Shown piece by piece: positions 20,646 through 49,234 of a stretch of DNA of 62,637 nt. Source of the stretch: Sulfurovum sp. (lineage in GTDB: Bacteria; Campylobacterota; Campylobacteria; Campylobacterales; Sulfurovaceae). The stretch spans positions 1 through 62,637 of the forward strand of contig DYMA01000001.1 in assembly GCA_020721815.1 (NCBI GenBank). Direction: 5' to 3'. Numbering within the stretch: the first letter of the stretch is position 1; each line of letters begins with the position of its first letter. The position numbers were made by a program, and so were the translations under genes. The notes under the pieces are model-generated. The model made no database searches. It was not told the DNA's origin and saw only the letters and a program-made list of their open reading frames with translations.

Positions 20646-20653
20646 ACTCTCTC

Positions 20654-22267: not shown

Positions 22268-22287
22268 TTTTTCCTCCTTTTTTACTA

Positions 22288-23634: not shown

Positions 23635-23656
23635 GCGTTGCTATACCTTTAGGTTT

Positions 23657-28580: not shown

Positions 28581-28593
28581 GCTCTCTCCTGCC

Positions 28594-30684: not shown

Positions 30685-30693
30685 TTTTTACTA

Positions 30694-30838
30694 CTCGCTC
30701 CACCTCTTCCTAAGAGTGTGAAATAACTGCTAAAAAAGTGCTTCGACAAGCTCAGCACGAACGGTTTTACGCTATCCGTTCACCCTGAGCCTAGTCGAAG
30801 GGTTTATTTTTTCGCACTCTCTTCTGAGGCGGAGCGAG
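30694..30838 (+). repeat. Nested palindromic repeat, subfamily 1, copy A (REP/MITE-like)
   Basis: ctcgctccacctc...cttcgacaagctcagcacgaacgg-N11-ccgttcaccctgagcctagtcgaagg...gaggcggagcgag. Near-identical to 49090-49234 in the same orientation. Confidence 0.9.
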
Positions 30839-30866
30839 AAAGCTTTGCCTTTTGTGATAAAAGGTT

Positions 30867-35164: not shown

Positions 35165-36126
35165 GCGTGCACAAGCCTTTTGACCAAATCAATCAAATTG
35201 GGATCAATGGCATATTTTTGGGAATTGACGTGTTCAATCGTAACAAACTCAAATCGAGCGTTTTTATAGACGATTACGTTGGCACATTGATCGTTTGCAA
35301 GGAGATAATCAATAGCATAAGTGACAAATTGAGAAGCCATTAAGCGGTCATGGACGGTTGGATTGCCACCCCTTTGGACATGCCCCAAAATAGTAGCGCG
35401 TGTCTCAATGCCTACCTCATGGGAGAGCCAATCGACTATCTTTTGGGTTTGACCCGTACCCTCGGCTACAATGGCTACGATATAGATTCTTCCATTGGCA
35501 ATCTCGGCTTTGAGCTGTTTGCCAATCTTATCCAAATCGTAGGCAAGTTCTGGGACGATACACACCTCTGCCCCACTGGTAATAGCCGAAACTACCGCCA
35601 AATAACCGCAATCTCGCCCCATCGTCTCGACCACACACGCTCTTCTAAAAGAGGCGGAGGTATCTCGTATCGCATCAATGGCTTCACGAATGATATTGAG
35701 TGAGGTATCAACCCCCAAACAGTAATCCGTACCAAAAATATCGTTATCAATCGTAGCGGGAATACCCACGAAACTAATCCCAAAATCGTGATGAAATTGA
35801 TTGAGCGCCCTAAATGAGCCATCTCCTCCCAAAATAACAATACGGGTAATGCCGTGCTTTTGGAGGTTCTCGTAGGCTTGTTTGCGGTATGCGTACTCAA
35901 AAAAGCGTTTGGAGCGAGAGGAGCGTATCATTGTCCCTCCCTCGTGCATCATGCCTGCTACATCTCGATAGGTTGCCGCTTGAATCTTTCCATCAATAAG
36001 CCCCTCCAATCCATCATAGATAAAATAGGGTTTTAAATTATGGTGCAAAGCATAATCAACAAATTGTTTGATAGCAGGGTTCATCCCAGCACAATCTCCG
36101 CCTGAAGTCATAATTGCTATTGCCAT
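35161..36126 (-). CDS. pfkA: ATP-dependent 6-phosphofructokinase
   Basis: TSGGDCAGMNPAI, ILGGDGSFRA (Gly, not Asp, at the ATP/PPi discriminator), PATIDNDI and MGRDCGYLA. Confidence 0.9.
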   Translation of the reverse strand: MAIAIMTSGGDCAGMNPAIKQFVDYALHHNLKPYFIYDGLEGLIDGKIQAATYRDVAGMMHEGGTMIRSSRSKRFFEYAYRKQAYENLQKHGITRIVILGGDGSFRALNQFHHDFGISFVGIPATIDNDIFGTDYCLGVDTSLNIIREAIDAIRDTSASFRRACVVETMGRDCGYLAVVSAITSGAEVCIVPELAYDLDKIGKQLKAEIANGRIYIVAIVAEGTGQTQKIVDWLSHEVGIETRATILGHVQRGGNPTVHDRLMASQFVTYAIDYLLANDQCANVIVYKNARFEFVTIEHVNSQKYAIDPNLIDLVKRLVHA

Positions 36127-36138
36127 GGTTGCTCTCTT

Positions 36139-37395
36139 TTAGGCTTGAAATTTTTTAACTAAAATATCTTTGCCCAGTTCAACACCGGGTTGATTGTAGG
36201 TATTGACCCCCATCATCGCTCCCGTAATGGATGTTAAAAGCTCAAAATAGGCAATTAAAGCACCGATATTCTCTTCATTGGCTCTACTAAGTGAGATTTT
36301 ATCGGCAACCACACCGCTATCCATGACGCTTTGCATTGTAGCGTCGCATTGGGCATTGATAAGCTTCCCAAAGCTGTTGCCGTTGATGTAGTCTGCTTTT
36401 TCGATGCGTTTGAGTGAAATATTGGGGATGGTAATATCCTCCTCGAAATCATCAATATTCATAAATGTCACACTCTTATTGCGAGGTCCTTCGATGATGA
36501 GTTGCAAAAAGGAGTGCTGATCTACCGAACCCGTAAGCCCAATAGGCGTAAGTCCCACACGGTTGCCTTGGGTATCGATTTTGCCCAATGATTCGCCCCA
36601 AAGCTGTACATACCATTTGGAAAAATCTTCAAGCAAGTTGGAGTAAGCAAAAAGGACATTGATAGAGAGTGTTTGGTTGTTGGTATAGAGATAATAAGCT
36701 TTTTGAAGCAGATGCTCCTCTTGACGCTCAAAAAATCTATCAATTAAATCACCTGCACCCTTAAGCAACGCCTCCACATCGTATCCCATAAGAAAAAGCG
36801 GCACGATGCCAACGGCACTCAAAACCGAAAAGCGTCCCCCTACGTTGCTGGGCATATTAAACTCTTTGATACCGTACTCTAGGGCAAATTGAGACAAAAT
36901 TGAACCAGGATCGGTAATAACAATGAGTCGTTTGGCATCGTCTGAAGCAAAATCAAAATCCAAATACGCCACAATAGCCTTGAAAGTAGAGATAGTCTCA
37001 ATCGTCCCACCCGATTTGGAGATGAGGATAATAGCCAAAGACTCTTTTTGAAGCTTTTTGAGTTTGGATGCGATATCAACGGGGTCGGAGTTTTCAAAAA
37101 ATATTAGCTCTTTGGCGTTGGTACGTTTGTGACAAAGCAACGAATCAATCGCTTTAGCCCCCAACGAAGAGCCACCAATGCCCACAACCACCACCGTTTG
37201 AGCTTCCATTAGCACACTGTTATCTTGCGTATAAGCCTTAAGCTCATGAATCACCTCTTGTGAAGTAACGGGAAGTTTGTAGTAGCCAATCTCACCGCTT
37301 TGGCACTCGTGTTGCACCTTTGTAAAAGCATCCTCAATCACGTGATTGGTATCTGTTGTTTCATAAAAATTTGTTGGTCTGTGAAAGGTTATCAT
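36139..37395 (-). CDS. pgi: Glucose-6-phosphate isomerase (short bacterial type)
   Basis: VVVGIGGSSLG, SKSGGTIET, GGRFSVLSAVG and QHSFLQLIIEG motifs. Confidence 0.88.
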   Translation of the reverse strand: MITFHRPTNFYETTDTNHVIEDAFTKVQHECQSGEIGYYKLPVTSQEVIHELKAYTQDNSVLMEAQTVVVVGIGGSSLGAKAIDSLLCHKRTNAKELIFFENSDPVDIASKLKKLQKESLAIILISKSGGTIETISTFKAIVAYLDFDFASDDAKRLIVITDPGSILSQFALEYGIKEFNMPSNVGGRFSVLSAVGIVPLFLMGYDVEALLKGAGDLIDRFFERQEEHLLQKAYYLYTNNQTLSINVLFAYSNLLEDFSKWYVQLWGESLGKIDTQGNRVGLTPIGLTGSVDQHSFLQLIIEGPRNKSVTFMNIDDFEEDITIPNISLKRIEKADYINGNSFGKLINAQCDATMQSVMDSGVVADKISLSRANEENIGALIAYFELLTSITGAMMGVNTYNQPGVELGKDILVKKFQA

Positions 37396-37428: not shown

Positions 37429-37470
37429 TTTTTTGATTACATAATAGTCTCAAACGAAACCTATTTTATC

Positions 37471-37592
37471 TCACTCCACGACATATTCAATTTATCGTTC
37501 GTACTGAGCTTGTCGAAGTACATCAAACTCAAGACCCTTCGACAAGCTCAGGGTGAACGGATACGATATTTTTTACTCTGTCGTGGAGTAAG
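37471..37592 (-). repeat. Nested palindromic repeat, subfamily 2, copy B (reverse complement of copy C)
   Basis: tcactccacgac...gttcgtactgagcttgtcgaag-N-cttcgacaagctcagggtgaacgg...gtcgtggagtaag. The reverse complement aligns with 46802-46924, with about 5 substitutions and 1 indel by hand alignment. Confidence 0.9.
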
Positions 37593-37760
37593 CTATTTTA
37601 TAATCAACTTGTCTGAGTCTTTACAGTAATATTACTATAAATTTCTTTATTTTCTCATAAAATAAGCAAAACTTAGCATAATAATTGATGGAAGTTATGC
37701 TCTAAAGTTTGAAAGTTAAATATAAATTAGAAATCTACAGCACAATTACCACAAGTCAAA

Positions 37761-38216
37761 TCACCGCAACCCTTGTTCTAGTGCATCTACTATCTCCCTT
37801 TGCAAAACCTCTCTATCGACACTTTGTATATCTAAAACATGGACATAGAGAGAGTCACCATCGAGTTCTAGGGTGATAGTGCCAGGGGTTAGAGTGATGG
37901 CATTGGCTAAGAGGAGCTTGTCGTGATTGGTTTTTAGGGTGGTTTTGAGCTTGACTATGCCCGTATTAATAGGGAGTTTGGGGTTGAGGACTATTTTGGC
38001 TACTTCTATGTTTGAGGCTATGAGGCTTTTGAAAAAGAGCGGTGCAAAGTGTAAGTATTGACGGATGATACTTGCTAATTCAAAGCTTCCACTAGGAGTA
38101 AAGTAACGAGCCACCACAAAGGCAACGACTGCCCCTACTGCCAACTCTTGGATATCGAGTGAGTTGGTAAGTCCCATCCAAACCAACAACAAAAGTATAA
38201 ATTTTCCTATCATCAC
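37761..38216 (-). CDS. MrpE/MnhE-like subunit
   Basis: SNIEVAKIVLNP...LLLANAITLTPGTITLELD...LYVHVLD is the MnhE signature. Last gene of the cluster. Confidence 0.7.
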   Translation of the reverse strand: MMIGKFILLLLVWMGLTNSLDIQELAVGAVVAFVVARYFTPSGSFELASIIRQYLHFAPLFFKSLIASNIEVAKIVLNPKLPINTGIVKLKTTLKTNHDKLLLANAITLTPGTITLELDGDSLYVHVLDIQSVDREVLQREIVDALEQGLR

Positions 38217-38605
38217 TTATCCTTTGGGAAATACAAAAAGTTATCGGCTTTATCGTCCGCCCAGATACACTCATTTTCCAGTTTGAGCGAATTGGGTGGG
38301 CAAACATCGGTACAGAGACTGCACCAGCAGCAACGACCGTAATCTATACGAGGGATACACCCACTGGCATTTTTTGGATTGACATCTTTGGCTATCGTTA
38401 CCATGTCAATTGCCTCATTCATACAAACATCTTGGCAGTTGGCACACCCTATGCAGTCGGCTAGTAGGTTGGTATGAAAACCTCTGTAGCCATCTATCTG
38501 CTCTTTTTTTACTTCAGGATAACAGATGGTTTTGGGGTGTTCAAAGAGCTTTTTGACGGCCAAAAACGGGCTGAGAGTCCCTTTTATATCAGGTGAAAAT
38601 TGCAT
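38213..38605 (-). CDS. NuoI/MbxN-like 2x[4Fe-4S] ferredoxin subunit
   Basis: CIGCANCQDVC and CCWCSLCTDVCP cluster motifs. Start set at MQFSPD (38605), 2 nt after the upstream stop. Confidence 0.85.
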   Translation of the reverse strand: MQFSPDIKGTLSPFLAVKKLFEHPKTICYPEVKKEQIDGYRGFHTNLLADCIGCANCQDVCMNEAIDMVTIAKDVNPKNASGCIPRIDYGRCCWCSLCTDVCPPNSLKLENECIWADDKADNFLYFPKDK

Positions 38606-38607
38606 CT

Positions 38608-39723
38608 TTATCGCTCCATTTCGGGTGGGCAAATACCCAGTGAGTTCATAATGAGAGCCACATTGGATAGCTCTTCATCTACCAATAGATTTTCGAGTAG
38701 CGTAAAGCCATGAATGAGTGAGGGACCTTTGACTTGCATTCGTCTAATAAACTCTGAGCCATCCCCTGCCATATAGTAGCCAAACTCTCCACGAGCCGAT
38801 TCAGTAGCTACATAAATATCCTCTTTTGGGAGTTTAAACTTGCGATGTTTTGGGAGCTTTTGCATGATAGCTCCCTCGCTGGGCATCTGAGCTATTACTT
38901 GTCTAAGTATCTTGATAGACTCTACCATCTCACCTCTTCGTACCAACGCACGGCTATAGACATCGCAACCCTCATACGTAGGTATCTCAAAATCAAGCTT
39001 ATCATAAACAAGATAGGGGTTATCTCGCCGCACATCTCGCTCTATTCCGCAACCTCGAAGGACTTGCCCAACATAGCCATTTTTGAGGGCTTCATCTCTA
39101 TTGACCACGCCCACGCCTATTGCTCTCTTTTTGAAGGTACTGTTTTCAAAAAAGATACTATCATAAGCAAGAAGTCTCCCCTCTAGGTAGTCCAAAAGCT
39201 GCGCTAACTTCTCCAAAAATCCATTAGGCAACTCTCGCCTAACGCCACCTGGGTAGATATACATATGATAGACTCGCCCACCTGTTAGCTCCTCAAAGAG
39301 ATCAAGTATCAAGTCTCTATCGTAAACACTCCATTGACCCACGACTCCTAGTCCAATAGAGCCACTTTGTCCACCCATCCATAGCATTTGGGCGGCTAGT
39401 CTCGCCATCTCTAGCACCATGACACGGATATATTTTGCTCTTTGGCTTATCTCTATACCTGCCAAACCCTCGACGGCTCTAGCGAAATTTTCCTCATTTG
39501 GGTCTGGTTCGGGGACGCAGATGCGACACACTATCGTAAAGGCTTGAATGATGGTTCGTCGTTCGATAAGTTTTTCAAAGCCTCGGTGGAGGTAGCCCAC
39601 ATGCGTCCTGGCCCCTTTGATGGTCTCGCCTAGAAGGTCTAGCTCCATGCTCATGTTGCCTGTGATACCTGGGTGTTGCGGGCCATGGTATATTTTGATG
39701 AGTCTATTGTCGTTATTTTCCAT
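38608..39723 (-). CDS. NuoD / group-4 [NiFe]-hydrogenase large-subunit-like catalytic subunit with an incomplete Cys set
   Basis: GPQHPG..., HVGYLHRGFEKL, then IVCRICVPEPD (CxxC). The C-terminus reads SLGICPPEMER: one Cys, with Glu at the second Cys position. Confidence 0.85.
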   Translation of the reverse strand: MENNDNRLIKIYHGPQHPGITGNMSMELDLLGETIKGARTHVGYLHRGFEKLIERRTIIQAFTIVCRICVPEPDPNEENFARAVEGLAGIEISQRAKYIRVMVLEMARLAAQMLWMGGQSGSIGLGVVGQWSVYDRDLILDLFEELTGGRVYHMYIYPGGVRRELPNGFLEKLAQLLDYLEGRLLAYDSIFFENSTFKKRAIGVGVVNRDEALKNGYVGQVLRGCGIERDVRRDNPYLVYDKLDFEIPTYEGCDVYSRALVRRGEMVESIKILRQVIAQMPSEGAIMQKLPKHRKFKLPKEDIYVATESARGEFGYYMAGDGSEFIRRMQVKGPSLIHGFTLLENLLVDEELSNVALIMNSLGICPPEMER

Positions 39724-40240
39724 CTTTTGACTCCTTCGCCTGGGCTTTTCTTCGTTTTACCTCTGCTTTGACATCTTTGTTGTCTTCTCTTCCTATCCTA
39801 AAGTCAAAATGCTCATTGACATAGGCTAATGTATCAAACTCCCTGCGAAGTGGCGGTATCTCATTCCAGTTTTCCAAAGCAAAATCATAGAGTGTGTCGT
39901 TGCCTCTAAAGTTGATACCGTACATCTCGTGAAGGTCACGCTCCATCACCTGAGCTTGTGGATAGAGGTTGAGGAGTGTGGGCAAAGAGCAATGCACTCT
40001 ACTGATGCGTACCTCTACCATAAGGTTTTTATCCCTCTCCTTGGTGGTAAGGATATAGTTGAGAGCAAACACCTCATCCTCTATCCAATCGGTACAGGCT
40101 ATTTGCGAGAGGGTGATAAAGTTGCTGTTGATGGAAACAGAGGAGAGTATCTCTACAAGCTTATCGGACTCTATCTGGAGCTTGTAGAGTCTCGGAGCTT
40201 TCTCTACTATCTCGTAATGTTTTTTCAAAAATTCTATCAT
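39713..40240 (-). CDS. NuoC/MbxK-like subunit
   Basis: 30-kDa subunit fold signature (VMERDLHEMYGINF...). Overlaps both neighbours. Confidence 0.8.
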   Translation of the reverse strand: MIEFLKKHYEIVEKAPRLYKLQIESDKLVEILSSVSINSNFITLSQIACTDWIEDEVFALNYILTTKERDKNLMVEVRISRVHCSLPTLLNLYPQAQVMERDLHEMYGINFRGNDTLYDFALENWNEIPPLRREFDTLAYVNEHFDFRIGREDNKDVKAEVKRRKAQAKESKDGK

Positions 40241-40863
40241 TGGTTCATCCCTGCAAAGTTCTCTTCAAAGGTTGGAGTAGTGTTTTTGCCAAATATCTTC
40301 TCTTGGTTGGCTCTATAGAAAGCATTGTTTTCTCTGTATTGGATATAGCCTGCCTCGCTTTTGGCGTTTCTGATATTGTCTTGGAGTTTGACAAAGCCCT
40401 CGATAAGTGCTTCGGGTCTGGGCATACAGCCGTTGATGTACATATCTACAGGAAGATACTCATCGAGCTTTTTGATGGTGTTGTAGCTATCCCAATACAT
40501 ACCGCCGTTGATGGTACAACTCCCTAATCCTATGACATACTTTGGTTCATTCATCTGTTCATAGCTTCGTATTACTCGTTTGAGTGTTTTGTAGGAGCAG
40601 TAGCCTGAGACGATGAGAATATCGGCTTGTCTAGGAGTCGCTACGCCTACGACACCGAGTCGCTCTATATCGTAACGACTCGTAAAGATAGGAGGCATCT
40701 CTATCGCCCCACAACCTGTACCATAAGCTAGGACAAACATACTCCTTGCACGAAACCAATCGACGGCTTTTTGAATGATGCTTTGTGTATTTTTGATGGA
40801 GTACTCTTCATTGTCCAAAACTTTTTGTTGGTCTATAAATCCCTCTTGGGTATTTTCTGGCAT
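40237..40863 (-). CDS. NuoB/MbxJ-like small subunit ([4Fe-4S] carrier)
   Basis: GTGCGAIEM, GLGSCTINGG and NGCMPRPE motifs. Start set at MPENTQ (40863) to avoid overlap with the NuoH-like gene. Confidence 0.85.
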   Translation of the reverse strand: MPENTQEGFIDQQKVLDNEEYSIKNTQSIIQKAVDWFRARSMFVLAYGTGCGAIEMPPIFTSRYDIERLGVVGVATPRQADILIVSGYCSYKTLKRVIRSYEQMNEPKYVIGLGSCTINGGMYWDSYNTIKKLDEYLPVDMYINGCMPRPEALIEGFVKLQDNIRNAKSEAGYIQYRENNAFYRANQEKIFGKNTTPTFEENFAGMNQ

Positions 40864-40873
40864 ACTTTTTCCT

Positions 40874-41752
40874 TTATACAAACAGAAGTCCAACTAGGGC
40901 AATACCTGTCGGAACTCTTACTAAAAACTCAACACTCTGTGCGGTAGTAAATCTCGCATAGACATTACCTACCAACACTGCCACCAAAAAGAGTACAAAA
41001 GTTTTGGCGACTAGCTCCACAAGACTCTGCGCCCCTCCCAAAAAGAGATTCACCATCAAAAGAAGCTTTGCAAATGAAAAGATAGCACTTTGCGAGAGAG
41101 CAATAGCAAAAAACTTTCCACTAAACTCTGTAGCAGGTCCACTGTAAACCTCTTGGGGTGCGCCGACGACATCAAAGGGAGATTTGCCCATAAATCCCAA
41201 AAATGAGATAAATGCCCCAATAAAGAGCAGCGGATGGGTAAATGCGTTGTAGCCCTCACTTTGGTTGGTCATAATGACACCAATATCCGCACTATGGTTG
41301 GCTATCATAAGCCCGATAGCAGCGATATAAAAGGGTAACTCCAGCCCGATAAGGCGTGTCAAACCTCGTGTGATACCCATGACTCCAAAAGGATTGCCGT
41401 TGCTCCCTATACCCATAGCATTGCCCAAAGGTTCCAAAACCATGAGGTAAAGCACGAGGATAAGATTGCCGTATTGGCTCAAACCCACTAGATGCTCACT
41501 CCCATTGAGATAGGGAATAAAGAGGAGAGTTGTAATAGCCCCTATCATCATGATGATAGGTCCTGCATAAAACATCCAACCAAAGTTGGTCGAGTTCTCT
41601 TTGAGAAAGAGTTTGATACTATCAAAAAAGGATTGTGCCAGTGAGGGACCAAATCTACCGTGAACTCTTGCAGAGATATTTCTGTAGAGTCCATAGTATA
41701 AAAATCCAAAAATATACGCCAATGCTATCATAGCAAGCGAATCCAAAAACAT
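40874..41752 (-). CDS. NuoH/MbxM-like membrane subunit
   Basis: 292 aa, about 8 TM helices. N-terminal RFGPS (...HGRFGPSLAQSFFDSIKL) matches the NuoH-type R-x-GP-x-G-x-LQ-x-x-D region. Confidence 0.8.
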   Translation of the reverse strand: MFLDSLAMIALAYIFGFLYYGLYRNISARVHGRFGPSLAQSFFDSIKLFLKENSTNFGWMFYAGPIIMMIGAITTLLFIPYLNGSEHLVGLSQYGNLILVLYLMVLEPLGNAMGIGSNGNPFGVMGITRGLTRLIGLELPFYIAAIGLMIANHSADIGVIMTNQSEGYNAFTHPLLFIGAFISFLGFMGKSPFDVVGAPQEVYSGPATEFSGKFFAIALSQSAIFSFAKLLLMVNLFLGGAQSLVELVAKTFVLFLVAVLVGNVYARFTTAQSVEFLVRVPTGIALVGLLFV

Positions 41753-43371
41753 TATCTCACCCCCAAAAAAAGTAAAATGGTAAAAAAGAGCAAGATAAAG
41801 AGTCCAATATATTGCGTGCCTAGGCTGTAGAGTTTTTTGACCATGACTGAACTATCACCACTGAGTTTGGAGATATGCTCCCAGTATGTGGCAGTGCTAT
41901 TTTCTAAAATCACTCTGATAAAGCTGATGCGTCGTAGCTCCTGTCCCATGCCGTAGCCATAGTGGAGATTGTTTTGTGGGTCGGGAGTTTCGCCACAGTA
42001 GCTGATGTCGTATCTATCTCTCACTTTGACCGCTTTGCTCCTCATGGATGTCACTAGTAGCAAAATGAGTGCAAAAACAAGCCCAAAGAGTCCCATGAGA
42101 ACTCCACCGTTGAATGATGCAAAGGCTGTGTGGAGTTCAAAGAGGCTACTGTAGCTACTCACCTCAAAGCCAAGAGAGCCTAGGATAGGGTTGAACAGTG
42201 CGATACCAAGTGATGGCAAGATACCCAAAAGTACCAAGATGATAGCTGCTATAAACTGAGGAATATAAAAACTCATAGGAAGCTCTCTGTATCCCTCTTT
42301 GTCGCCACTTGCTTGTCCTAGGTAAATACCATAGATGAGCTTGTAGCAGTAGAGAAAGGCGGAGGCAGAGCTAAACATCACAGCTACGAGTAGGAGTGCT
42401 TTTTTCTTCTCTAGTAGTGTTGTATAGATGAGAAACTTGCTGTTGAATCCCCCGAGTGGAGGCATGCCTGCGAGGGCTATGATACCGATGAGCAGGAGGA
42501 TAAAGAGGGCAGGGTAGTCATAGAGGAGATTGCCTAGTTGGCTAAACTTTGTCTTGCCTGTGATATAGATGATAGAGGCGATATTGACAAAGAGCAGGAG
42601 CTTGACTAGCGTGTGAATGATGGTGTGATAGAGTCCAGCCTCGATACCACTCCCCTCCAAGAGAGCTAAAACAGTGACGATATAGCCTATCTGAGCGATA
42701 GAGGAGTAGGCTAAGAGTCTTTTGAGTTCCTCTTGTGAGATGGCTTTGAAAGTGGCTACAATGGAGGTAATGACACCCAACCACGCAAGTATATCAAAAA
42801 GTGAACCGTGAAGGTATCTATAGCCTATAATTTGCGAAAAGATGACAATAAAGAGAAATATCCCAGCTTTTGAGATGATGGCACTTAGTATCGCTGAGAA
42901 GATATGGTCAGACTCCTCGTAGGTATCAACCACCCAGTAGTGAAAGGGCATAATACCTGATTTGATAGCGATGGTGACAAAAAGCAAAAGCGTTATCGGC
43001 ACACGCAACGCCTCTGGTACTTTGCCAAAATCAATCTCGCCGTAGAGTGTCGTACCTGCAAAAGCAACGATAAGGACGATAGCCCCAAGGAGTGCAAAAC
43101 CTGCTGCGAGGTTAAAGATAATATATTTTTGCAGCGTCTCTATCCTAGCACTTTTGGCGATGATAAAGTAGCTACTCCAGCTCATAATCTCCCACCCTAC
43201 AAAGAGTGTAATAAGGTCACTGGCATAAAATATAACTCCTAATGATGCAAAGAGGAGTATATGCAACGGCAAATCCCTCCTCTCGTTTTTAATCAAAAGC
43301 AAAGAGGCAAAGACGATGAGTGTCAAGCCAAAAAAGAGATTGCCCAGTGGGGTCATGGCAAAGTTAAACAT
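41752..43371 (-). CDS. MrpD/NuoL/M-like antiporter subunit (second copy, H'-like)
   Basis: 539 aa, polytopic. Conserved proton-pump-family blocks (WEIMSWSSY, PFHYWV, AYSSIAQIGY). Confidence 0.8.
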   Translation of the reverse strand: MFNFAMTPLGNLFFGLTLIVFASLLLIKNERRDLPLHILLFASLGVIFYASDLITLFVGWEIMSWSSYFIIAKSARIETLQKYIIFNLAAGFALLGAIVLIVAFAGTTLYGEIDFGKVPEALRVPITLLLFVTIAIKSGIMPFHYWVVDTYEESDHIFSAILSAIISKAGIFLFIVIFSQIIGYRYLHGSLFDILAWLGVITSIVATFKAISQEELKRLLAYSSIAQIGYIVTVLALLEGSGIEAGLYHTIIHTLVKLLLFVNIASIIYITGKTKFSQLGNLLYDYPALFILLLIGIIALAGMPPLGGFNSKFLIYTTLLEKKKALLLVAVMFSSASAFLYCYKLIYGIYLGQASGDKEGYRELPMSFYIPQFIAAIILVLLGILPSLGIALFNPILGSLGFEVSSYSSLFELHTAFASFNGGVLMGLFGLVFALILLLVTSMRSKAVKVRDRYDISYCGETPDPQNNLHYGYGMGQELRRISFIRVILENSTATYWEHISKLSGDSSVMVKKLYSLGTQYIGLFILLFFTILLFLGVR

Positions 43372-44758
43372 GGCTACCTCCTATAAGTGTTGTTGCGACG
43401 ACCTTGCAAACCGCAAGAAGAGTATCGGGGAAAATACCAAAATAGACGATAGCAGTCGCCATAAGCGATAGCAGTGCTTTGTGCAAGAGAGGTATTGATA
43501 GGCTCTCTTTTGTTTCATCTCCACCTCTGGCGTATCCCAAAAGTCTAAAGAGGTAAGCAGCCTCCACGAGAGAGACTAGCAAAATCACCCCTATCAGGAG
43601 ATACCCACCACTTAGAGCCAAGCCCTTGAGTATGGTAAGTTTGGCAATAAATCCACCAAATGGAGGCAATCCCAAAAGCGAGAGAAATCCAATGGCAAAG
43701 ATACTCATCAAAAAGAGTGAGCCAAATCGCCCAAAAATCTCTACCTTTGTGCTATGAAACTGCTGCTTTAAGATATCAAGAGACAAAAAGAGCATGAGTT
43801 TGGTGATAGAGTGAAGAGCTATCAAAAATATCGCTCCACTCACGGCTGTAACATTACCCGATGAGAGTGCTATAAAGAGTATCCCTATTTGACCGAGTGT
43901 GGAGTAGGCAAATATCCTCTTTAAATCCTTGCTTCCCAATGCGGAGAGTTCGGCAACAGCAAAAGAGATAGCACCAATAACCGCCAAAAAGGTTAGCTTT
44001 TGACTCTCCACGCCAAGCATATAGGCGATATGAAAAAAGAGAAAGATGTAGGCTTTGGAGAGTGTGGCACTAAAGAGTGCGTTGATTTGGTTGCCGCTGG
44101 CTTGATAGATATGAGCAACCCAAAAGTTGAGAGGAAAAATCTCCGCCTTGACACCAAACCCAATAAAGAGTGAGAGCAAAATCAAAAACTGCGTATGCGT
44201 CTCAATCGTAGCAAATCTCTGACCGATAGTCACCAAATCGAGCGAACCGATGCTAAGGTAGATACTTATAATAGCAATAAGGAGAAAGATAGAAGCTGCA
44301 AATCCGATAATCATATAACGAATCGCCCCACTGTAGGCTTGTTTGTCTCGTCCCAAAGAGGTGAGAATATAAGCCGTGACACTTGCCATCTCGAAAAATA
44401 TATAAATATTGAATATATCCCCACTCAAAACAAGCCCCATGAGACTTGCTAGAAGTATATTATTGAGAATAAATCTCTCTTTGCTGTTCTCGCCGCCCAG
44501 ATTGTAGAGCGAGAGGAGTGTCATGATAGTGATAAAAAGTATCACAAAAAAGAGCGATGCACTATCAAGCACAAAGGAGATACTCAGAGCCGAATCAAAG
44601 GAGATATTCTCACGCATTGGCAAAGCAGAGATGAAACCAATAGCAAGTCCAAGGAGTGCAAGGTTGAGAGCTACGGAGAGATATTTGAGATACTCTCTAA
44701 AAAAGGGTGCCAAAAATGAGGCAAGGAGCGGCAAAGCCACGAAATAGACCAAACTCAT
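43364..44758 (-). CDS. MrpD/NuoM/N-like antiporter subunit (first copy)
   Basis: 464 aa, polytopic. FFEMASVTAY, PLNFWV and AYSTLGQIG blocks. Confidence 0.8.
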   Translation of the reverse strand: MSLVYFVALPLLASFLAPFFREYLKYLSVALNLALLGLAIGFISALPMRENISFDSALSISFVLDSASLFFVILFITIMTLLSLYNLGGENSKERFILNNILLASLMGLVLSGDIFNIYIFFEMASVTAYILTSLGRDKQAYSGAIRYMIIGFAASIFLLIAIISIYLSIGSLDLVTIGQRFATIETHTQFLILLSLFIGFGVKAEIFPLNFWVAHIYQASGNQINALFSATLSKAYIFLFFHIAYMLGVESQKLTFLAVIGAISFAVAELSALGSKDLKRIFAYSTLGQIGILFIALSSGNVTAVSGAIFLIALHSITKLMLFLSLDILKQQFHSTKVEIFGRFGSLFLMSIFAIGFLSLLGLPPFGGFIAKLTILKGLALSGGYLLIGVILLVSLVEAAYLFRLLGYARGGDETKESLSIPLLHKALLSLMATAIVYFGIFPDTLLAVCKVVATTLIGGSHV

Positions 44759-45141
44759 GACTCTTCTCCCAATTCATTCATCTTGTCTATATCCAAATTG
44801 CCCGTGAGTTTGAAGTAATTGACAACAAAAGAGAGCGAGAGTGCCAAGACCGCAATGGCGATAACGATGGTTGTAAGTATCATCGCTTGCGGTACGGGAT
44901 CGACCATATTTACGCCAAACTCTGTCACCTTTTGCGTGACAATGGGGGCATCTTTGCCAACTTCAAAGTGCATGCCTATGAAGTACAAAAAGAGACTTGC
45001 CTCAGCGATAGATAGAGAGAGAAATATTTTGAAGAGATTTTTTTTGCTCATTGCACCAATCAAACCAATAGCCAAAAGCAAAAATGCACCGATGGTAATA
45101 ACTCCATGCAAAAAAGGTGTTTGGTTGAAACTATCTAACAT
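44755..45141 (-). CDS. MrpC/NuoK-like subunit
   Basis: 128 aa with three TM helices. Position and size match MnhC/MbxG. Confidence 0.65.
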   Translation of the reverse strand: MLDSFNQTPFLHGVITIGAFLLLAIGLIGAMSKKNLFKIFLSLSIAEASLFLYFIGMHFEVGKDAPIVTQKVTEFGVNMVDPVPQAMILTTIVIAIAVLALSLSFVVNYFKLTGNLDIDKMNELGEES

Positions 45142-45838
45142 CTTTTATCCTTATGAAATACTCAACAAGAGTACTAATCTCAGCAGAGACTTTGAGTCCT
45201 ACAAATATATAGATGAGCGGTATCACGCCCCCACTCCACAGTTTGCCCAACGTGCCTAGCGGCAAGAAATTACCAAAGAATCTATCGACAAGCAAAAGAC
45301 CCAAAATACCAACGAGGACAAATCCAGCACCACTGAGTGCCTCTACGAGAGTAGTCATTTTGTGATTTAGCTTAAACTCATTGTTTTTGGCCAAAAACAT
45401 CAGCAAAAAACCACTTGCAATGACCACGCCACCTTGAAATCCACCCCCAGGCGAGAGGTGACCATGAATGATAATATAGAGTCCAAAGAGGATGATGAGA
45501 GGAAAAAGCATATCGGCTCCTATTTTAAGGAGGGCATTGTCGTAGCTAAAGATATTCTCTTTCTCTTGCAGTCTCTCTATCCCCAAACCAATCCCAAAAA
45601 TAGACAAAAAGAGTATCGTAACCTCCCCTAGTGTATCAAGCCCCCTAAAGTAGGTGACTACCGAAGTGACGGCATTGGCGCTTTGTGTGGTGGTTTGGTT
45701 GATAGCCAAAAGCTCACTGCCCAGTGAACCAGAGAGGGGTTGAAAGCTCAGCAATATGCCCAAGAGCAAAATAGTCATGATGGATACGAGCAGTGAAACC
45801 ACGATGGTTTGTACTCTAATTTCTCTTTTTGGATTCAT
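45131..45838 (-). CDS. MrpB/MnhB-like subunit
   Basis: NAVTSVVTYFRGLDTLGE and HLSPGGGFQGGVV motifs of the MnhB domain. Confidence 0.75.
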   Translation of the reverse strand: MNPKREIRVQTIVVSLLVSIMTILLLGILLSFQPLSGSLGSELLAINQTTTQSANAVTSVVTYFRGLDTLGEVTILFLSIFGIGLGIERLQEKENIFSYDNALLKIGADMLFPLIILFGLYIIIHGHLSPGGGFQGGVVIASGFLLMFLAKNNEFKLNHKMTTLVEALSGAGFVLVGILGLLLVDRFFGNFLPLGTLGKLWSGGVIPLIYIFVGLKVSAEISTLVEYFIRIKDVR

Positions 45839-46083
45839 ACGTTGCGCCCCTTTTTACTAATCTGTAGGAGTGTTACCAACAAGACAACACCACTCGTCCC
45901 CACACCTATCACCGCTTCCGTTAGAGCTACATCGGGTGCGCTAAAGAGGACAAATAAGACAGCACTGCCCAAACCAAACCCCATAAATAAAATCACACTA
46001 TGAGCCAAATCGTTGTTGGATACAATAAAAATAGCCAAGAGAATAAGCATTGCAAAAATGCAAAGTACAATAAGCCCTATCAT
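45835..46083 (-). CDS. DUF4040 / MrpB N-terminal-like (MbhD-like) subunit
   Basis: 82 aa with the SAPDVALTEAVIGVG motif. Confidence 0.65.
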   Translation of the reverse strand: MIGLIVLCIFAMLILLAIFIVSNNDLAHSVILFMGFGLGSAVLFVLFSAPDVALTEAVIGVGTSGVVLLVTLLQISKKGRNV

Positions 46084-46397
46084 TTTTGCTCTCCCAAATC
46101 ATCTATGCCGCTCTTGTTTAAAAAGCCATTTTTGAGATAGCTACTACGAGCCAAGATAGACGATGAGAGCGGGTTGGTGAGGAGTATAAAAAGCCCCAAG
46201 AGCGAGAGCTTGAACCCAAGCGATGGGTCTAAAAATATCGCTCCTAGTATCACGAGCAGACTGCCCAAGGTAGAGGCTTTTGTGCCTGCGTGCATACGGG
46301 TGATAGTATCGGGCATACGCAACAGCCCAATCGCACTGATTATCAAGAGCAGTGTACCCAAAAACATAATAAAAAATCCAATACCATCAAGCATCAT
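46080..46397 (-). CDS. MrpG/MnhG-like subunit
   Basis: GLLRMPDTITRMHAGTKASTLG signature. Confidence 0.8.
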   Translation of the reverse strand: MMLDGIGFFIMFLGTLLLIISAIGLLRMPDTITRMHAGTKASTLGSLLVILGAIFLDPSLGFKLSLLGLFILLTNPLSSSILARSSYLKNGFLNKSGIDDLGEQK

Positions 46398-46644
46398 CGC
46401 TCCTTATCACATTGAATCGTGCAAAAACAATCGTACCCACGAAGCCTATGAGAGCAAAAACAAAAGCTATATCCAAATAGATGCTATCTTTGATGGTCAC
46501 AGACATAACCACCAAGAGTGATACTGCGATAATCCCCATCGTATCAAACGCCACAACTCTATCGGTGAGATGGGGTCCTATAAGAAAGCGAATAAACGAG
46601 AGGAGTATTGCAAAAAGAGTCATAATAATGAGAAATAGAGCCAT
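46387..46644 (-). CDS. MrpF/MnhF-like subunit (first gene of the cluster)
   Basis: LIGPHLTDRVVAFDTMG signature. 85 aa, three TM helices. Confidence 0.8.
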   Translation of the reverse strand: MALFLIIMTLFAILLSFIRFLIGPHLTDRVVAFDTMGIIAVSLLVVMSVTIKDSIYLDIAFVFALIGFVGTIVFARFNVIRSDDA

Positions 46645-46801
46645 ATAAGTAACCTTGCTTTAGTATTGTATATTTTGACTTTAGATTATAGTAGAAATAT
46701 ATATCATTATAATAACAGATATTAGACAAGATTTGGCTTTAAATGCAAAAGAAAATTACAATGAAGCGGGATAGTTATTCGTTACGAAACAAGAAATATA
46801 T

Positions 46802-46924
46802 CTTACTCCACGACAAAGCAAAAAAATATCGTATCCGTTCACCCTGAGCTTGTCGAAAGGTCTTGAGTTTGATGTACTTCGACAAGCTCAGCACGAACGA
46901 TAAATTGAATATGTCGTGAAGTGA
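46802..46924 (+). repeat. Nested palindromic repeat, subfamily 2, copy C
   Basis: cttactccacgac...ccgttcaccctgagcttgtcgaaagg-N-cttcgacaagctcagcacgaacg...gtcgtgaagtga. Inverted counterpart of 37471-37592. Confidence 0.9.
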
Positions 46925-46977
46925 GGAAATATATTTTAAAAATAGAAATAATTGTCATAATAAATAGGATAGAGTTA

Positions 46978-49089: not shown

Positions 49090-49234
49090 CTCGTTCCGCC
49101 TCTCCTAAGAGTGTGAAATAACTGCCAAAAAAAGTGCTTCGACAAGCTCAGCACGAACGGTTTTACACTATCCGTTCACCCTGAGTCCAGTCGAAGGGTT
49201 TATTATTTCACACTCTGTCCCGAGATGGAACGAG
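49090..49234 (+). repeat. Nested palindromic repeat, subfamily 1, copy D
   Basis: ctcgttccgcctc...cttcgacaagctcagcacgaacgg-N11-ccgttcaccctgagtccagtcgaagg...gagatggaacgag. Same orientation as copy A. Confidence 0.9.

What the first reader, a model, noticed from the sequence alone, without database searches (positions are those of the whole stretch)
38608..39723. Catalytic-subunit homologue with a hybrid hydrogenase/NuoD active-site signature (CxxC ... C-P-P-E-M-E-R)
Seen in the 371-aa translation:
- The N-terminal L1-type position reads AFTIVCRICVPEPD. C-x-x-C is retained, but the His of R-x-C-G-x-C-x-x-x-H is absent.
- The protein terminates ...NSLGICPPEMER.

Aligned by eye to the hydrogenase C-terminal D-P-C-x-x-C-x-x-R/H motif, the first Cys is kept and the second position is Glu. 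That Glu and the terminal E-R also line up with the G-E-V-D-R end of NuoD.

So three of the four canonical [NiFe] cysteine positions are present and one is NuoD-like. There is no C-terminal extension for protease processing.

Established: a full four-Cys set is required for a [NiFe] centre, and Mbx/MBS-type subunits lack part of it. I cannot recall which positions.

Inference: this is either a non-hydrogenase (sulfur- or quinone-reducing?) site or an evolutionary intermediate between group-4 hydrogenases and complex I.
Basis: partly seen in the sequence, partly recalled or inferred. Interest (0 to 1): 0.75.

Follow-up and report, generated by a model that had tools for sequence, protein, structure and literature searches.

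The report
Bacterial MBS-type sulfur reductase subunit
The gene encodes the large "catalytic-position" subunit of a 13-subunit membrane complex of the known MBS/Mbx type (a nickel-free relative of hydrogenases and complex I), here in a cave sulfur-oxidising Sulfurovum. It keeps two, not three, of the four old nickel-binding cysteines, so it is an ordinary member of a known family.

Summary
The 371-aa ORF is real and lies on the minus strand. Both quoted strings are present.

The by-eye alignment of the first motif is off by three residues. In a MAFFT alignment with genuine group-4 hydrogenases (ER-VCGICSHxH), the four Ni-ligand positions fall on C69, E72, C365 and E368. Only the first and third cysteines survive. 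These are exactly C85 and C385 of Pyrococcus furiosus MbsL, the best solved-structure match (6U8Y_L, E 7e-88).

This two-cysteine vestige is already published for Mbx/MBS and Mbx-like complexes (PMC7684303, PMC4758237). C66 is not a ligand position.

All 13 genes at 37761-46644 match the 13 MBS chains one to one. The NuoB-like subunit has only three cluster cysteines. The quinone-binding His and Tyr are absent.

The same operon occurs in Campylobacterota and purple sulfur bacteria, where the L subunit is named "NuoD".

The most likely function is ferredoxin-driven sulfane-sulfur reduction coupled to ion pumping. This is inferred, not shown.

Two mild twists remain. C66 is invariant, and it is also kept in a huge bacterial sister family that lost both vestigial cysteines. 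The operon sits inside a glycogen/glycolysis cluster.

Verdict: new member of a known kind, with modest interest.

The parts
38608..39723 (-). MbsL/MbxL-type large subunit (371 aa), the finding itself
   Evidence: Best PDB hit is 6U8Y_L at E 7e-88, against Nqo4 5e-64 and MbhL 3e-37. It is 40% identical to Pf MbsL, with C69=C85 and C365=C385. Pfam PF00346.
39496..39540 (-). L1-equivalent motif FTIVCRICVPEPDPN (residues 62-76). C66 is extra, C69 is the first Ni-ligand position, E72 is the second, and N76 replaces the motif His.
   Evidence: C66, C69 and E72 are invariant in 120/120 close homologues and in essentially all 80 genome loci.
38611..38646 (-). L2-equivalent C-terminus NSLGICPPEMER (residues 360-371). 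C365 is the third ligand position and E368 the fourth. The protein ends at the Arg with no extension.
40237..40893 (-). MbsJ-type (NuoB-like) subunit carrying the proximal [4Fe-4S]. The likely true start is the ATG at 40863.
   Evidence: Best PDB hit is 6U8Y_J at 2.9e-59, aligned without gaps through the cluster loop. C61, C126 and C156 are invariant, Gly58 sits at the MbsJ C25 position, and C99 is variable.
40696..40731 (-). J-subunit motif LAYGTGCGAIEM. It has a single Cys where complex I has Cys-Cys and MbsJ has CxxC.
38213..38632 (-). MbsN-type (NuoI-like) 2x[4Fe-4S] subunit. The likely start is the ATG at 38605.
   Evidence: 6U8Y_N at 7.9e-18, with both CxxCxxCxxxC motifs aligned. The best NCBIfam hit is the N-terminal part of NF010590, the NuoI+GltD fusion family.
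39713..40240 (-). MbsK-type (NuoC-like) subunit
   Evidence: 6U8Y_K at 6e-17. Pfam PF00329.
40874..41752 (-). MbsM-type (NuoH-like) membrane anchor
   Evidence: 6U8Y_M at 3.8e-37, the only hit below 1e-25.
41752..43371 (-). MbsH'-type antiporter-like subunit (539 aa)
   Evidence: 6U8Y_X at 4.3e-54, against MbhH at 1e-31.
43364..44758 (-). MbsH-type antiporter-like subunit (464 aa)
   Evidence: 6U8Y_H at 1.3e-46.
44755..45141 (-). MbsG-type (MnhC/NuoK-like) subunit
   Evidence: 6U8Y_G at 8e-19.
45131..45838 (-). MbsE-type (MnhB-like) subunit
   Evidence: 6U8Y_E at 4.6e-40.
45835..46083 (-). MbsD-type small membrane subunit (82 aa)
   Evidence: 6U8Y_D at 4.4e-6.
46080..46397 (-). MbsC-type (MnhG) subunit
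   Evidence: 6U8Y_C at 7e-13.
46387..46644 (-). MbsB-type (MnhF) subunit, first gene of the operon
   Evidence: 6CFW_B at 1.6e-11 and 6U8Y_B at 7.8e-9.
37761..38216 (-). MbsA-type (MnhE) subunit, last gene of the operon
   Evidence: 6U8Y_A at 8.4e-30. Pfam PF01899.

Best explanation
**What it is.** The ORF encodes the L (NuoD-like) subunit of a 13-subunit, Mrp-antiporter-based respiratory complex of the MBS/Mbx type, in a Sulfurovum related to strain PC08-66. It is a nickel-free descendant of group-4 [NiFe] hydrogenases. Of the four Ni-ligand positions, only the first (C69) and third (C365) are still Cys. The second and fourth are Glu.

**How it most likely works, by analogy with the P. furiosus MBS structure.**
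- Reduced ferredoxin donates electrons to the two [4Fe-4S] clusters of the N subunit.
- The electrons pass to the proximal [4Fe-4S] on the J subunit. Here that cluster can have only three cysteinyl ligands (C61, C126, C156).
- The free iron of that cluster, at the top of a hydrophobic chamber formed by L, J and M, reduces sulfane sulfur (polysulfide) rather than protons or quinone.
- The energy is passed through the M/H'/H/Mrp membrane arm to move H+/Na+.

**Shown here:** family membership, subunit inventory, residue patterns, their conservation and taxonomic spread.

**Inferred:** the substrate, the electron donor, the direction of operation and ion coupling.

**Physiological role (inferred).** The complex would dispose of ferredoxin electrons from glycogen/glucose breakdown onto the elemental sulfur these sulfur oxidisers make, during anoxic periods.
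For: - Every one of the 13 gene products has the matching 6U8Y (MBS) chain as its best solved-structure hit, except the MnhF-like subunit, which matches 6CFW_B slightly better than 6U8Y_B. The calls are L, J, E/A/C/B/D, H', N, G/K, M and H.
- L scores 298 bits to MbsL, 220 to Nqo4 and 132 to MbhL.
- C69 and C365 coincide residue for residue with MbsL C85 and C385. These are the two vestigial cysteines described in PMC7684303.
- Thr21 and Val70 replace the quinone-binding His38 and Tyr87 of Nqo4. Gly22 replaces the Glu of the hydrogenase HPxxxEP motif.
- The J subunit aligns gaplessly with MbsJ. Its invariant Cys are C61, C126 and C156, with Gly at the MbsJ C25 position in all loci. This fits the three-Cys proximal cluster that MBS uses as catalyst.
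- The operon is syntenic in about 45 long loci from Sulfurovum, Sulfurimonas, Sulfuricurvum, Nitratifractor, Arcobacteraceae, Chromatiaceae and Ectothiorhodospiraceae.
- A CoADR/NSR-family flavoprotein lies next to the operon in six Campylobacterota loci. Its best PDB hits are entries 5L1N, 4FX9 and 3KD9, named coenzyme A disulfide reductase.
- In T. maritima, nsr and the 13-subunit mbx operon are both induced by S0.
- In the window, the operon is embedded in a glycogen and upper-glycolysis cluster: pgi, pfkA, pyk, glgA, glgP, PGM and three GH57 genes.
- Frasassi Sulfurovum also carries a normal Nuo complex, so this is an additional enzyme.
Against: - No biochemical, expression or metal data exist for this clade.
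- The glycolysis adjacency is seen only in the window and its closest relative L001. The NSR-like neighbour is absent from the window.
- The hosts are sulfur oxidisers, not classical sulfur-reducing fermenters.
- In Endoriftia, a putative Mrp-Mbx is co-expressed with the rTCA cycle, and its direction is called unknown. Reverse operation is therefore possible.
- Sequence identity to the characterised enzyme is only 40%.
- C66, invariant here, has no counterpart in Pf MbsL. The chemistry at the site could differ.
- The AlphaFold model is unreliable exactly at the site loops: pLDDT is below 50 at residues 17-22, 44-51, 66-70 and 367-371.
Confidence: 0.6

Rival explanations
1. The same MBS-type complex runs in reverse in these autotrophs. 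The H+/Na+ gradient drives electrons uphill from sulfide or polysulfide (or another low-potential sulfur donor) to ferredoxin. That ferredoxin supplies the reductive TCA cycle in Campylobacterota or nitrogenase in Chromatiaceae.
For: - The clade is restricted to sulfur-oxidising autotrophs.
- In Endoriftia, the putative Mrp-Mbx shares co-expression neighbours with the rTCA cycle and sulfur-globule proteins, not with the CBB cycle. The authors list its in vivo direction as unknown.
- That complexes of this superfamily are in general reversible is established background knowledge, not tested here.
Against: - The glycogen/glycolysis context in the window and the NSR-like neighbours point to disposal of reductant, not its production.
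- Chromatiaceae use the CBB cycle.
- There is no direct evidence for MBS reversibility.
Confidence: 0.2
2. It is a ferredoxin:quinone (menaquinone) oxidoreductase, a simplified complex I or NDH-1-like enzyme, as its public name 'NADH-quinone oxidoreductase subunit D' implies.
For: - NCBIfam NF004739 'NuoD' is passed at 382 bits against a cutoff of 360.
- The fold is indistinguishable from the 49-kDa/NuoD subunits (TM 0.85-0.89).
- The M, J, K, L and N subunits are homologous to NuoH, B, C, D and I.
Against: - The Nqo4 His38 and Tyr87 equivalents are Thr21 and Val70, invariant across the clade.
- The J subunit lacks the tandem Cys-Cys of cluster N2.
- TIGR01962 NuoD scores 305, below its cutoff of 459.
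- The membrane arm is Mrp-type, with MnhB, E, F and G subunits that complex I lacks.
- The organism group has a separate Nuo.
Confidence: 0.08
3. One reading: a hybrid metal site in which three cysteines (C66, C69, C365) plus Glu bind Ni, Fe or another metal. That would make it a degenerate or novel hydrogenase-like centre.
For: - Three cysteines are invariant in the clade.
- C66 and C69 form a CxxC spacing.
Against: - C66 is not at a ligand position.
- The two bridging-ligand positions are Glu. The catalytic Glu and the motif His are missing.
- In a sister family, C66 persists while C69 becomes Asn and C365 becomes Val. C66 therefore does not depend on the other two.
- The equivalent C85A/C385A double mutant of Pf MBS remains active and that site holds no metal.
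- No hyp maturation genes are in the operon.
Confidence: 0.03
4. It is a ferredoxin:NAD(P)+ oxidoreductase, the older model for Mbx and the likely role of the GltD-fused 'Mbx-like' complexes.
For: - Related bacterial operons (L081, L083) carry an N subunit fused to a GltD-like NAD(P)H-binding flavoprotein. This arrangement is described in PMC4758237.
- The window's N subunit is most similar to the N-terminal part of that fusion family.
Against: - The window's N subunit is only 139 aa and has no flavin or NAD(P) domain.
- No such gene lies in or next to the operon.
Confidence: 0.05

Closest known systems
Pyrococcus furiosus membrane-bound sulfane reductase MBS (formerly Mbx), PDB 6U8Y; subunit MbsL
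   Same: - The 13-subunit inventory matches, and nearly every subunit has its MBS counterpart as best solved-structure hit.
- L keeps exactly the C85 and C385 equivalents, with acidic residues at the other two ligand positions.
- There is no quinone-binding His/Tyr and no C-terminal extension.
- J has three usable cluster cysteines and the same loop length.
   Different: - The host is a mesophilic bacterium and L is only 40% identical to MbsL.
- L has an extra invariant Cys66 where MbsL has Leu82.
- The non-ligating MbsJ Cys25 is Gly here.
- MnhE is the last gene rather than the first.
- H' aligns from about residue 38 to MbsH' residue 106, so it is N-terminally shorter.
- N is 139 aa against 208 aa.
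- Function is untested.
Bacterial 'Mbx-like' complexes with a GltD-fused N subunit (Thermotoga, Planctomycetes, WOR-3 and others; Degli Esposti 2015)
   Same: - The Mrp-type operon layout is the same.
- The Cys66 equivalent is conserved ('VCR' motif, 115 of 117 sequences).
- The window's N subunit resembles the N-terminus of their fused N subunit.
   Different: - Most have lost both vestigial Cys (Asn69, Val365).
- They carry a ~600-aa NuoI+GltD fusion that implies NAD(P)(H) coupling. The window clade has neither feature.
Group 4 membrane-bound [NiFe] hydrogenase large subunits (MbhL 6CFW_L, HycE 7Z0S_E)
   Same: The fold and ancestry are shared, and the complex architecture around L, J, K, M and N is the same.
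   Different: - Only two of the four Ni-ligand Cys remain.
- Gly sits at the catalytic Glu position and Asn at the motif His.
- Similarity is much weaker (E 3e-37 and 2e-26).
Complex I NuoD/Nqo4/49-kDa subunit
   Same: - The fold matches (TM ~0.88).
- The C-terminal ...E-x-[DE]-R ending is shared.
- The conserved Arg67 corresponds to Y. lipolytica R141 in the second sphere of cluster N2.
   Different: - There is no His38 or Tyr87.
- The vestigial Cys are retained.
- The partner J subunit lacks the Cys-Cys pair.
- The membrane arm is Mrp-type and there is no NuoEFG module.

Membership tests
MBS/Mbx (membrane-bound sulfane reductase) complex | 13-gene set combining a full Mrp antiporter module (A-G, H, H') with M, J, K, L and N | tested here: met
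   One-to-one matches to 6U8Y chains A, B, C, D, E, G, H, X (H'), M, J, K, L and N. The genes are contiguous and co-oriented at 37761-46644.
MBS/Mbx (membrane-bound sulfane reductase) complex | The L subunit retains only the first and third [NiFe] cysteine ligands (MbsL C85, C385) | tested here: met
   C69=C85 and C365=C385, with E72 and E368 at the other two positions. These residues are invariant across the 80 loci.
MBS/Mbx (membrane-bound sulfane reductase) complex | Proximal [4Fe-4S] on J with three cysteinyl ligands, and a cluster loop shorter than in MBH | tested here: met
   The alignment with MbsJ through the loop is gapless. C61, C126 and C156 are invariant. The MbsJ C25 position is Gly in all loci, so no fourth Cys is available from J. 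This is based on sequence only; the actual coordination has not been observed.
MBS/Mbx (membrane-bound sulfane reductase) complex | Absence of the quinone-binding His38/Tyr87 (Nqo4 numbering) and of the hydrogenase catalytic Glu | tested here: met
   The equivalent residues are Thr21, Val70 and Gly22, invariant in alignment A1 and in the loci.
MBS/Mbx (membrane-bound sulfane reductase) complex | Ferredoxin-dependent polysulfide/sulfane reduction coupled to Na+/H+ translocation | not testable with these tools
   This needs purified enzyme or vesicles.
MBS/Mbx (membrane-bound sulfane reductase) complex | Induction by elemental sulfur | not testable with these tools
   No expression data exist for this clade. 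S0 induction is shown for the T. maritima mbx operon.
Group 4 [NiFe] hydrogenase large subunit | Four Cys in R-x-C-G-x-C-x-x-x-H and D-P-C-x-x-C-x-x-[HR] | tested here: not met
   The pattern is C-E-C-E, with N76 in place of the His.
Group 4 [NiFe] hydrogenase large subunit | Conserved Glu of the N-terminal HPxxxEP motif (proton transfer; MbhL E21) | tested here: not met
   Gly22 aligns with that Glu in the hydrogenase P0156.
Group 4 [NiFe] hydrogenase large subunit | Ni content and H2 activity | not testable with these tools
   Metal analysis and an activity assay are required.
Complex I NuoD | Quinone head-group ligands His38 and Tyr87 | tested here: not met
   The equivalents are Thr21 and Val70.
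Complex I NuoD | Partner NuoB with a tandem Cys-Cys ligating N2; Nuo-type membrane arm (NuoA, J, K, L, M, N) | tested here: not met
   The J motif is GTGCG, with a single Cys. The arm contains MnhB, E, F and G homologues.
Complex I NuoD | Curated family models | tested here: inconclusive
   NF004739 passes (382 against a cutoff of 360), but TIGR01962 NuoD fails (305 against 459). The passing model evidently also covers MbxL-type proteins.

The most novel reading that the evidence does not exclude
There are two linked ideas.

**An active role for Cys66.** In this bacterial clade, the invariant extra Cys66 sits next to Arg67. [quoted passage not shown] Cys66 is conserved even in a huge sister family that lost both vestigial Ni cysteines. 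It could have an active role that P. furiosus MBS lacks. One option is an inter-subunit fourth ligand or gate for the three-Cys proximal cluster. Another is a persulfide-carrying thiol.

**A candidate for an unassigned enzyme.** The complex could be the enzyme that lets S0-depositing sulfur oxidisers (Chromatium, Sulfurovum) reduce their own sulfur with stored glycogen in the dark or without oxygen.
Probability: 0.12. Interest if true: 0.65.

Novelty: new member of a known kind. Interest (0 to 1): 0.3.

Why it matters
- **Annotation.** These genes are named 'NADH-quinone oxidoreductase subunit D' throughout public databases. In fact they belong to an MBS/Mbx-type, nickel-free and quinone-independent complex. 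Metabolic reconstructions of Sulfurovum, Sulfurimonas and purple sulfur bacteria may therefore miss a ferredoxin-linked, ion-pumping sulfur reductase.
[quoted passage not shown] No enzyme is assigned to this in the genome papers read here. The complex is a concrete candidate. It is present in cultured Chromatium, Thiocystis and Allochromatium strains and in an isolate, Sulfurovum sp. CS9, so it can be tested.
- **Evolution.** The clade adds a state carrying the first and third Ni cysteines plus Cys66. It sits between the archaeal two-Cys MbsL and bacterial Mbx-like proteins that keep only Cys66.

Tried and rejected
- **Structure route.** An AlphaFold2 model from a 48-sequence alignment gave pTM 0.86. 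Its pLDDT is below 50 exactly at residues 17-22, 44-51, 66-70 and 367-371, and no coordinates are returned. The 'do the Cys converge' test could not be done. Foldseek against the PDB gives TM 0.85-0.89 to both complex I 49-kDa subunits and 6U8Y_L, so fold does not discriminate.
- **Covariation idea.** I tested whether gain of L-Cys66 compensates for loss of J-Cys25. It is rejected. The Planctomycetes-type locus L081 has both Cys. The P0121-type locus L083 has neither at those exact positions.
- **Conserved link to glycolysis genes.** This holds only in the window and its nearest relative L001. The clustering of flanking ORFs found one recurring neighbour, a CoADR/NSR-like flavoprotein, in 6 loci.
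- **The 113-nt inverted repeat flanking the operon.** It looked like a cassette boundary or a shared promoter. It is a dispersed palindromic MITE/REP-like element absent from L001, so it is incidental.
- **MgtE link.** The extra ORF inside the Chromatium weissei operon is not similar to the window's MgtE.
- **My recollection about bovine Arg-85.** I recalled that the dimethyl-Arg of the 49-kDa subunit corresponds to Arg67. This was wrong. It corresponds to Arg47 (GLLHRG). The correct counterpart of Arg67 is Y. lipolytica R141.
- **Literature searches.** Searches for Mbx/MBS together with Sulfurovum or Chromatiaceae found no description of this clade. They found only the Endoriftia 'putative Mrp-Mbx' note.
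Full report
**1. Observation**

Window 38608-39723 is an ATG-started ORF of 371 codons plus stop, on the minus strand. The plus strand is full of stops. The translation contains AFTIVCRICVPEPDPN (residues 61-76) and ends NSLGICPPEMER.

The gene is real.
- Pfam Complex1_49kDa scores 1e-65.
- There are 3139 database homologues at E<=1e-10.
- The nearest non-self homologue, at 98% identity, is from Sulfurovum sp. PC08-66, a Frasassi cave biofilm organism.

**2. Where the cysteines really align**

I aligned the protein with 150 representatives of 50%-identity clusters. Twenty of these are bona fide four-Cys group-4 hydrogenases with ER-[VI]CGICSxxH ... DPC[FIL]xCxxR.
- The hydrogenase R-x-C-G-x-C lines up with R67-I-C69-V-P-E72.
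- D-P-C-x-x-C-x-x-R lines up with (G-I)-C365-P-P-E368-M-E-R371.
- A pairwise BLASTP with one such hydrogenase gives the same register at the N-terminal motif.

The four canonical positions therefore read C-E-C-E. The first and third ligands are kept. The second and fourth, the two that bridge Ni and Fe in standard hydrogenases (my own knowledge), are Glu.

It aligns with the Glu of 'ER' in hydrogenases, the Asp of 'TDR' in NuoD and Leu82 in MbsL.

The N-terminal alignment is not. The count is two of four, not three.

**3. What the protein is**

Against all PDB sequences, the best match by far is chain L of 6U8Y, the P. furiosus membrane-bound sulfane reductase MBS.

| PDB match | E-value | Score (bits) |
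|---|---|---|
| 6U8Y_L (MbsL) | 7e-88 | 298 |
| Nqo4 | 5e-64 | 220 |
| MbhL | 3e-37 | 132 |
| HycE | 2e-26 | 96 |

The alignment to MbsL is end to end and 40% identical. It puts C69 on MbsL C85 and C365 on C385.

The MBS structure paper names exactly these residues (PMC7684303; see also PMC8165549). [quoted passage not shown] The C85A/C385A enzyme remains active.

[quoted passage not shown] The signature is therefore known.

**4. The whole complex**

The ORF is the eleventh of thirteen co-oriented, mostly overlapping genes at 37761-46644 on the minus strand. Nearly every product has the corresponding 6U8Y chain as its best solved-structure hit.

| Window product | Best 6U8Y chain | E-value |
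|---|---|---|
| MnhF-like | B | 7.8e-9 (6CFW_B is slightly better, 1.6e-11) |
| MnhG-like | C | 7e-13 |
| 82-aa protein | D | 4.4e-6 |
| MnhB-like | E | 4.6e-40 |
| MnhC-like | G | 8e-19 |
| Antiporter-like (464 aa) | H | 1.3e-46 |
| Antiporter-like (539 aa) | H' (chain X) | 4.3e-54 |
| NuoH-like | M | 3.8e-37 |
| NuoB-like | J | 2.9e-59 |
| NuoC-like | K | 6e-17 |
| NuoI-like | N | 7.9e-18 |
| MnhE-like | A | 8.4e-30 |

There is no NuoEFG module and there are no hyp genes in the operon. The Frasassi Sulfurovum genomes also encode a regular Nuo complex (PMC4288042), so this is an additional enzyme.

**5. Tests of the active-site neighbourhood**

- Quinone site. Nqo4 His38 and Tyr87 correspond to Thr21 and Val70.
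- Proton-reduction Glu. The Glu of the hydrogenase HPxxxEP motif corresponds to Gly22.
- Proximal cluster. MBS is distinguished by a proximal [4Fe-4S] held by three cysteines, because MbsJ C25 sits too far away on a shortened loop. The window's J subunit aligns with MbsJ without gaps through this loop and reads GTGCG where MbsJ reads FCTGCG. The C25 position is Gly58, and C61 corresponds to the ligating C28.
- Conservation. Across the 80 genome loci, J has invariant Gly58, C61, C126 and C156. The only other Cys, C99, varies between Cys, Leu and Ala. L has invariant T21, C66, C69, V70, C365 and E368, and E72 in all but one locus.

On sequence grounds, J can offer only three cysteinyl ligands. 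This is the MBS situation in a cleaner form.

**6. Distribution and context**

The 13-gene operon is syntenic in about 45 long loci.
- Campylobacterota: Sulfurovum (including the isolate CS9), Sulfurimonas, Sulfuricurvum, Nitratifractor and Arcobacteraceae.
- Chromatiaceae: Chromatium okenii and C. weissei, Thiocystis, Allochromatium warmingii and A. palmeri, Thiococcus, Thiorhodococcus, Imhoffiella and Thiocapsa imhoffii.
- Ectothiorhodospiraceae MAGs.
- Shorter loci from Spirochaetales MAGs and one Fibrobacter-labelled MAG also encode the L subunit.

Every homologue of the L subunit that carries a source name in the protein search is called 'NADH-quinone oxidoreductase subunit D' or NADH dehydrogenase subunit D. 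One NCBIfam model (NF004739) is just passed, although TIGR01962 NuoD is not.

In the window, the operon lies inside a ~29-kb glycogen and upper-glycolysis cluster.
- Downstream are pgi, pfkA, pyk, an NDP-sugar pyrophosphorylase/mutase fusion, GH57, a GalT-like gene, glgA, a ROK kinase, glgP, MgtE, PGM, DUF4912 and a GH57 branching enzyme.
- Upstream, divergently transcribed, is a GH57 4-alpha-glucanotransferase.

This adjacency is shared only with the closest relative L001. The only neighbour that recurs in more distant loci is a CoA-disulfide-reductase/NSR-family flavoprotein, in six Campylobacterota loci. Its best PDB hits are 5L1N, 4FX9 and 3KD9, all named coenzyme A disulfide reductase. 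In T. maritima, nsr and the 13-subunit mbx operon are both induced by S0 (PMC9431562).

**7. Mechanism and role**

The best-supported reading is by homology with MBS.
- Reduced ferredoxin donates to the N subunit.
- Electrons pass to the three-Cys proximal cluster on J.
- The open iron reduces sulfane sulfur in the hydrophobic L/J/M chamber.
- The Mrp-type arm moves H+/Na+.

Family membership and residue patterns are shown. Substrate, donor, direction and ion coupling are inferred.

Physiologically, the hosts deposit S0 and store glycogen. [quoted passage not shown] Neither genome paper assigns an enzyme to this. The window's gene neighbourhood fits disposal of fermentative reductant onto S0.

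The main rival is reverse operation, with the ion gradient driving ferredoxin reduction for the rTCA cycle. In Endoriftia, a 'putative Mrp-Mbx complex' is co-expressed with the rTCA cycle and its in vivo direction is listed as unknown (PMC11636981).

Quinone-reductase, hydrogenase and Fd:NAD(P)+ readings are each contradicted by tested features. These are, respectively, T21/V70 and the single-Cys J motif, the C-E-C-E pattern with Gly22, and the short N subunit without a GltD domain.

**8. What is mildly new**

Cys66 is invariant in the clade: 120 of 120 close proteins, and every genome locus whose alignment covers the position.

A profile search seeded with more distant relatives found a very large bacterial family, whose named members come from Planctomycetes, WOR-3 and Coatesbacteria. 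Its L subunits read FP[LM]VCRINVVEPD ... ISLYVVAPEIDR.
- The Cys66 equivalent is present in 115 of 117 sequences.
- In 113 of those, both vestigial ligands are gone (Asn69 in nearly all; Val, Thr, Ile, Ser or Ala at 365).

Their operons have the same Mrp/MBS layout, but the N subunit is a ~600-aa NuoI+GltD-like fusion. This is the 'mbx-like' type of PMC4758237. The window's short N is most similar to the N-terminus of that fusion family (NF010590).

The window clade thus combines the archaeal two-Cys vestige with the bacterial 'VCR' cysteine.

Arg67, next to Cys66, is the counterpart of Y. lipolytica NUCM R141, described as part of the second coordination sphere of cluster N2 (PMC8042128). The mapping uses Val70 = Tyr144 = Nqo4 Tyr87 and rests on my own numbering knowledge. 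Cys66 is therefore probably close to the proximal cluster.

Whether it ligates or gates that cluster, or carries persulfide, cannot be decided here. The AlphaFold model is unreliable exactly there, and a simple covariation with J-Cys25 does not hold.

**9. Verdict**

The sequence strings are real. The 'three of four cysteines / hybrid site' interpretation is a register error. The protein is a bacterial orthologue of MbsL/MbxL inside a complete MBS-type operon. That family's two-cysteine vestige and its 'missing-link' status are already published.

It is a new member of a known kind and of modest interest. Two leads are worth recording: the invariant Cys66, and the candidate role in dark or anoxic S0 reduction by sulfur-storing sulfur oxidisers.

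Noticed in passing
window 37462-37599 and 46795-46933; partial copies at 30738-30803 and 49134-49199: A ~120-138-nt palindromic MITE/REP-like element occurs as an inverted pair (92-95% identical) flanking the whole 13-gene operon, with partial copies in two other intergenic regions. Its terminal repeats are CTCACTCCACGACA...TGTCGTGGAGTAAG and its inner hairpin is CTGAGCTTGTCGAAG...CTTCGACAAGCTCAG. The three insertions (30707-30825, 37470-37592, 46806-46925) are absent from the closest relative L001 (~94% nt identity). The junctions show 6-12-bp overlaps, so the insertions are recent.
   Followed up: partly
window 33813-34328, inside pyk at 33347-35164 (-): A 516-nt in-frame segment of the long-form pyruvate kinase (605 aa) has no counterpart in the closest relative L001. 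This could be an indel or an assembly difference.
   Followed up: no
L009, L022, L025, L027, L033, L036 (e.g. L036:2678-4051): A 457-aa CoA-disulfide-reductase/NSR-family flavoprotein lies next to the MBS-like operon in six Campylobacterota loci. Its best PDB hits are 5L1N, 4FX9 and 3KD9, all named coenzyme A disulfide reductase. It is not present in the window.
   Followed up: partly
L081:1946-13003 and L083:1564-13071; proteins P0271-P0387: A very large bacterial Mbx-like family has L subunits that keep only the Cys66 equivalent (VCRINVVEPD ... YVVAPEIDR). Its N subunit is a ~600-aa NuoI+GltD-like fusion. In L083 the H and H' subunits are fused (1046 aa). In L081 an FeS_assembly_P gene sits between K and L and a thioredoxin gene follows N.
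   Followed up: partly
L050, L055, L056, L072 (Chromatium weissei and C. okenii, A. warmingii, Thiocystis violascens MAG); L074 and L079: In these Chromatiaceae loci the operon ends with L. No N (2x[4Fe-4S]) or MnhE gene was found in the stretch held for each locus, which reaches from about 5 kb (L055) to 10 kb (L050, L056, L072) past L. L050 also has an extra 444-aa ORF between H and H'. C. okenii LaCa carries two copies of the L gene, at 70% and 61% identity to the query.
   Followed up: partly
window 18410-37395 and 47020-49029: A large glycogen/alpha-glucan and upper-glycolysis gene cluster surrounds the operon. It includes three GH57 enzymes, glgA, glgP, PGM, a ROK kinase, a GalT-like gene, an NDP-sugar pyrophosphorylase-mutase fusion, pyk, an ATP-dependent pfkA and pgi.
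   Followed up: partly
window 38608-39723 and public homologues P0002-P0120: Every homologue that carries a source name is called 'NADH-quinone oxidoreductase subunit D' or NADH dehydrogenase subunit D. NCBIfam NF004739 is passed (382 against a cutoff of 360) although TIGR01962 NuoD is failed. The name is misleading for this clade.
   Followed up: yes
window 40863 and 38605: The mechanical ORF starts of J (TTG at 40893) and N (TTG at 38632) are probably too far upstream. In-frame ATGs at 40863 (MPENTQ...) and 38605 (MQFSPD..., directly after the L stop codon) fit the neighbouring gene ends better.
   Followed up: partly
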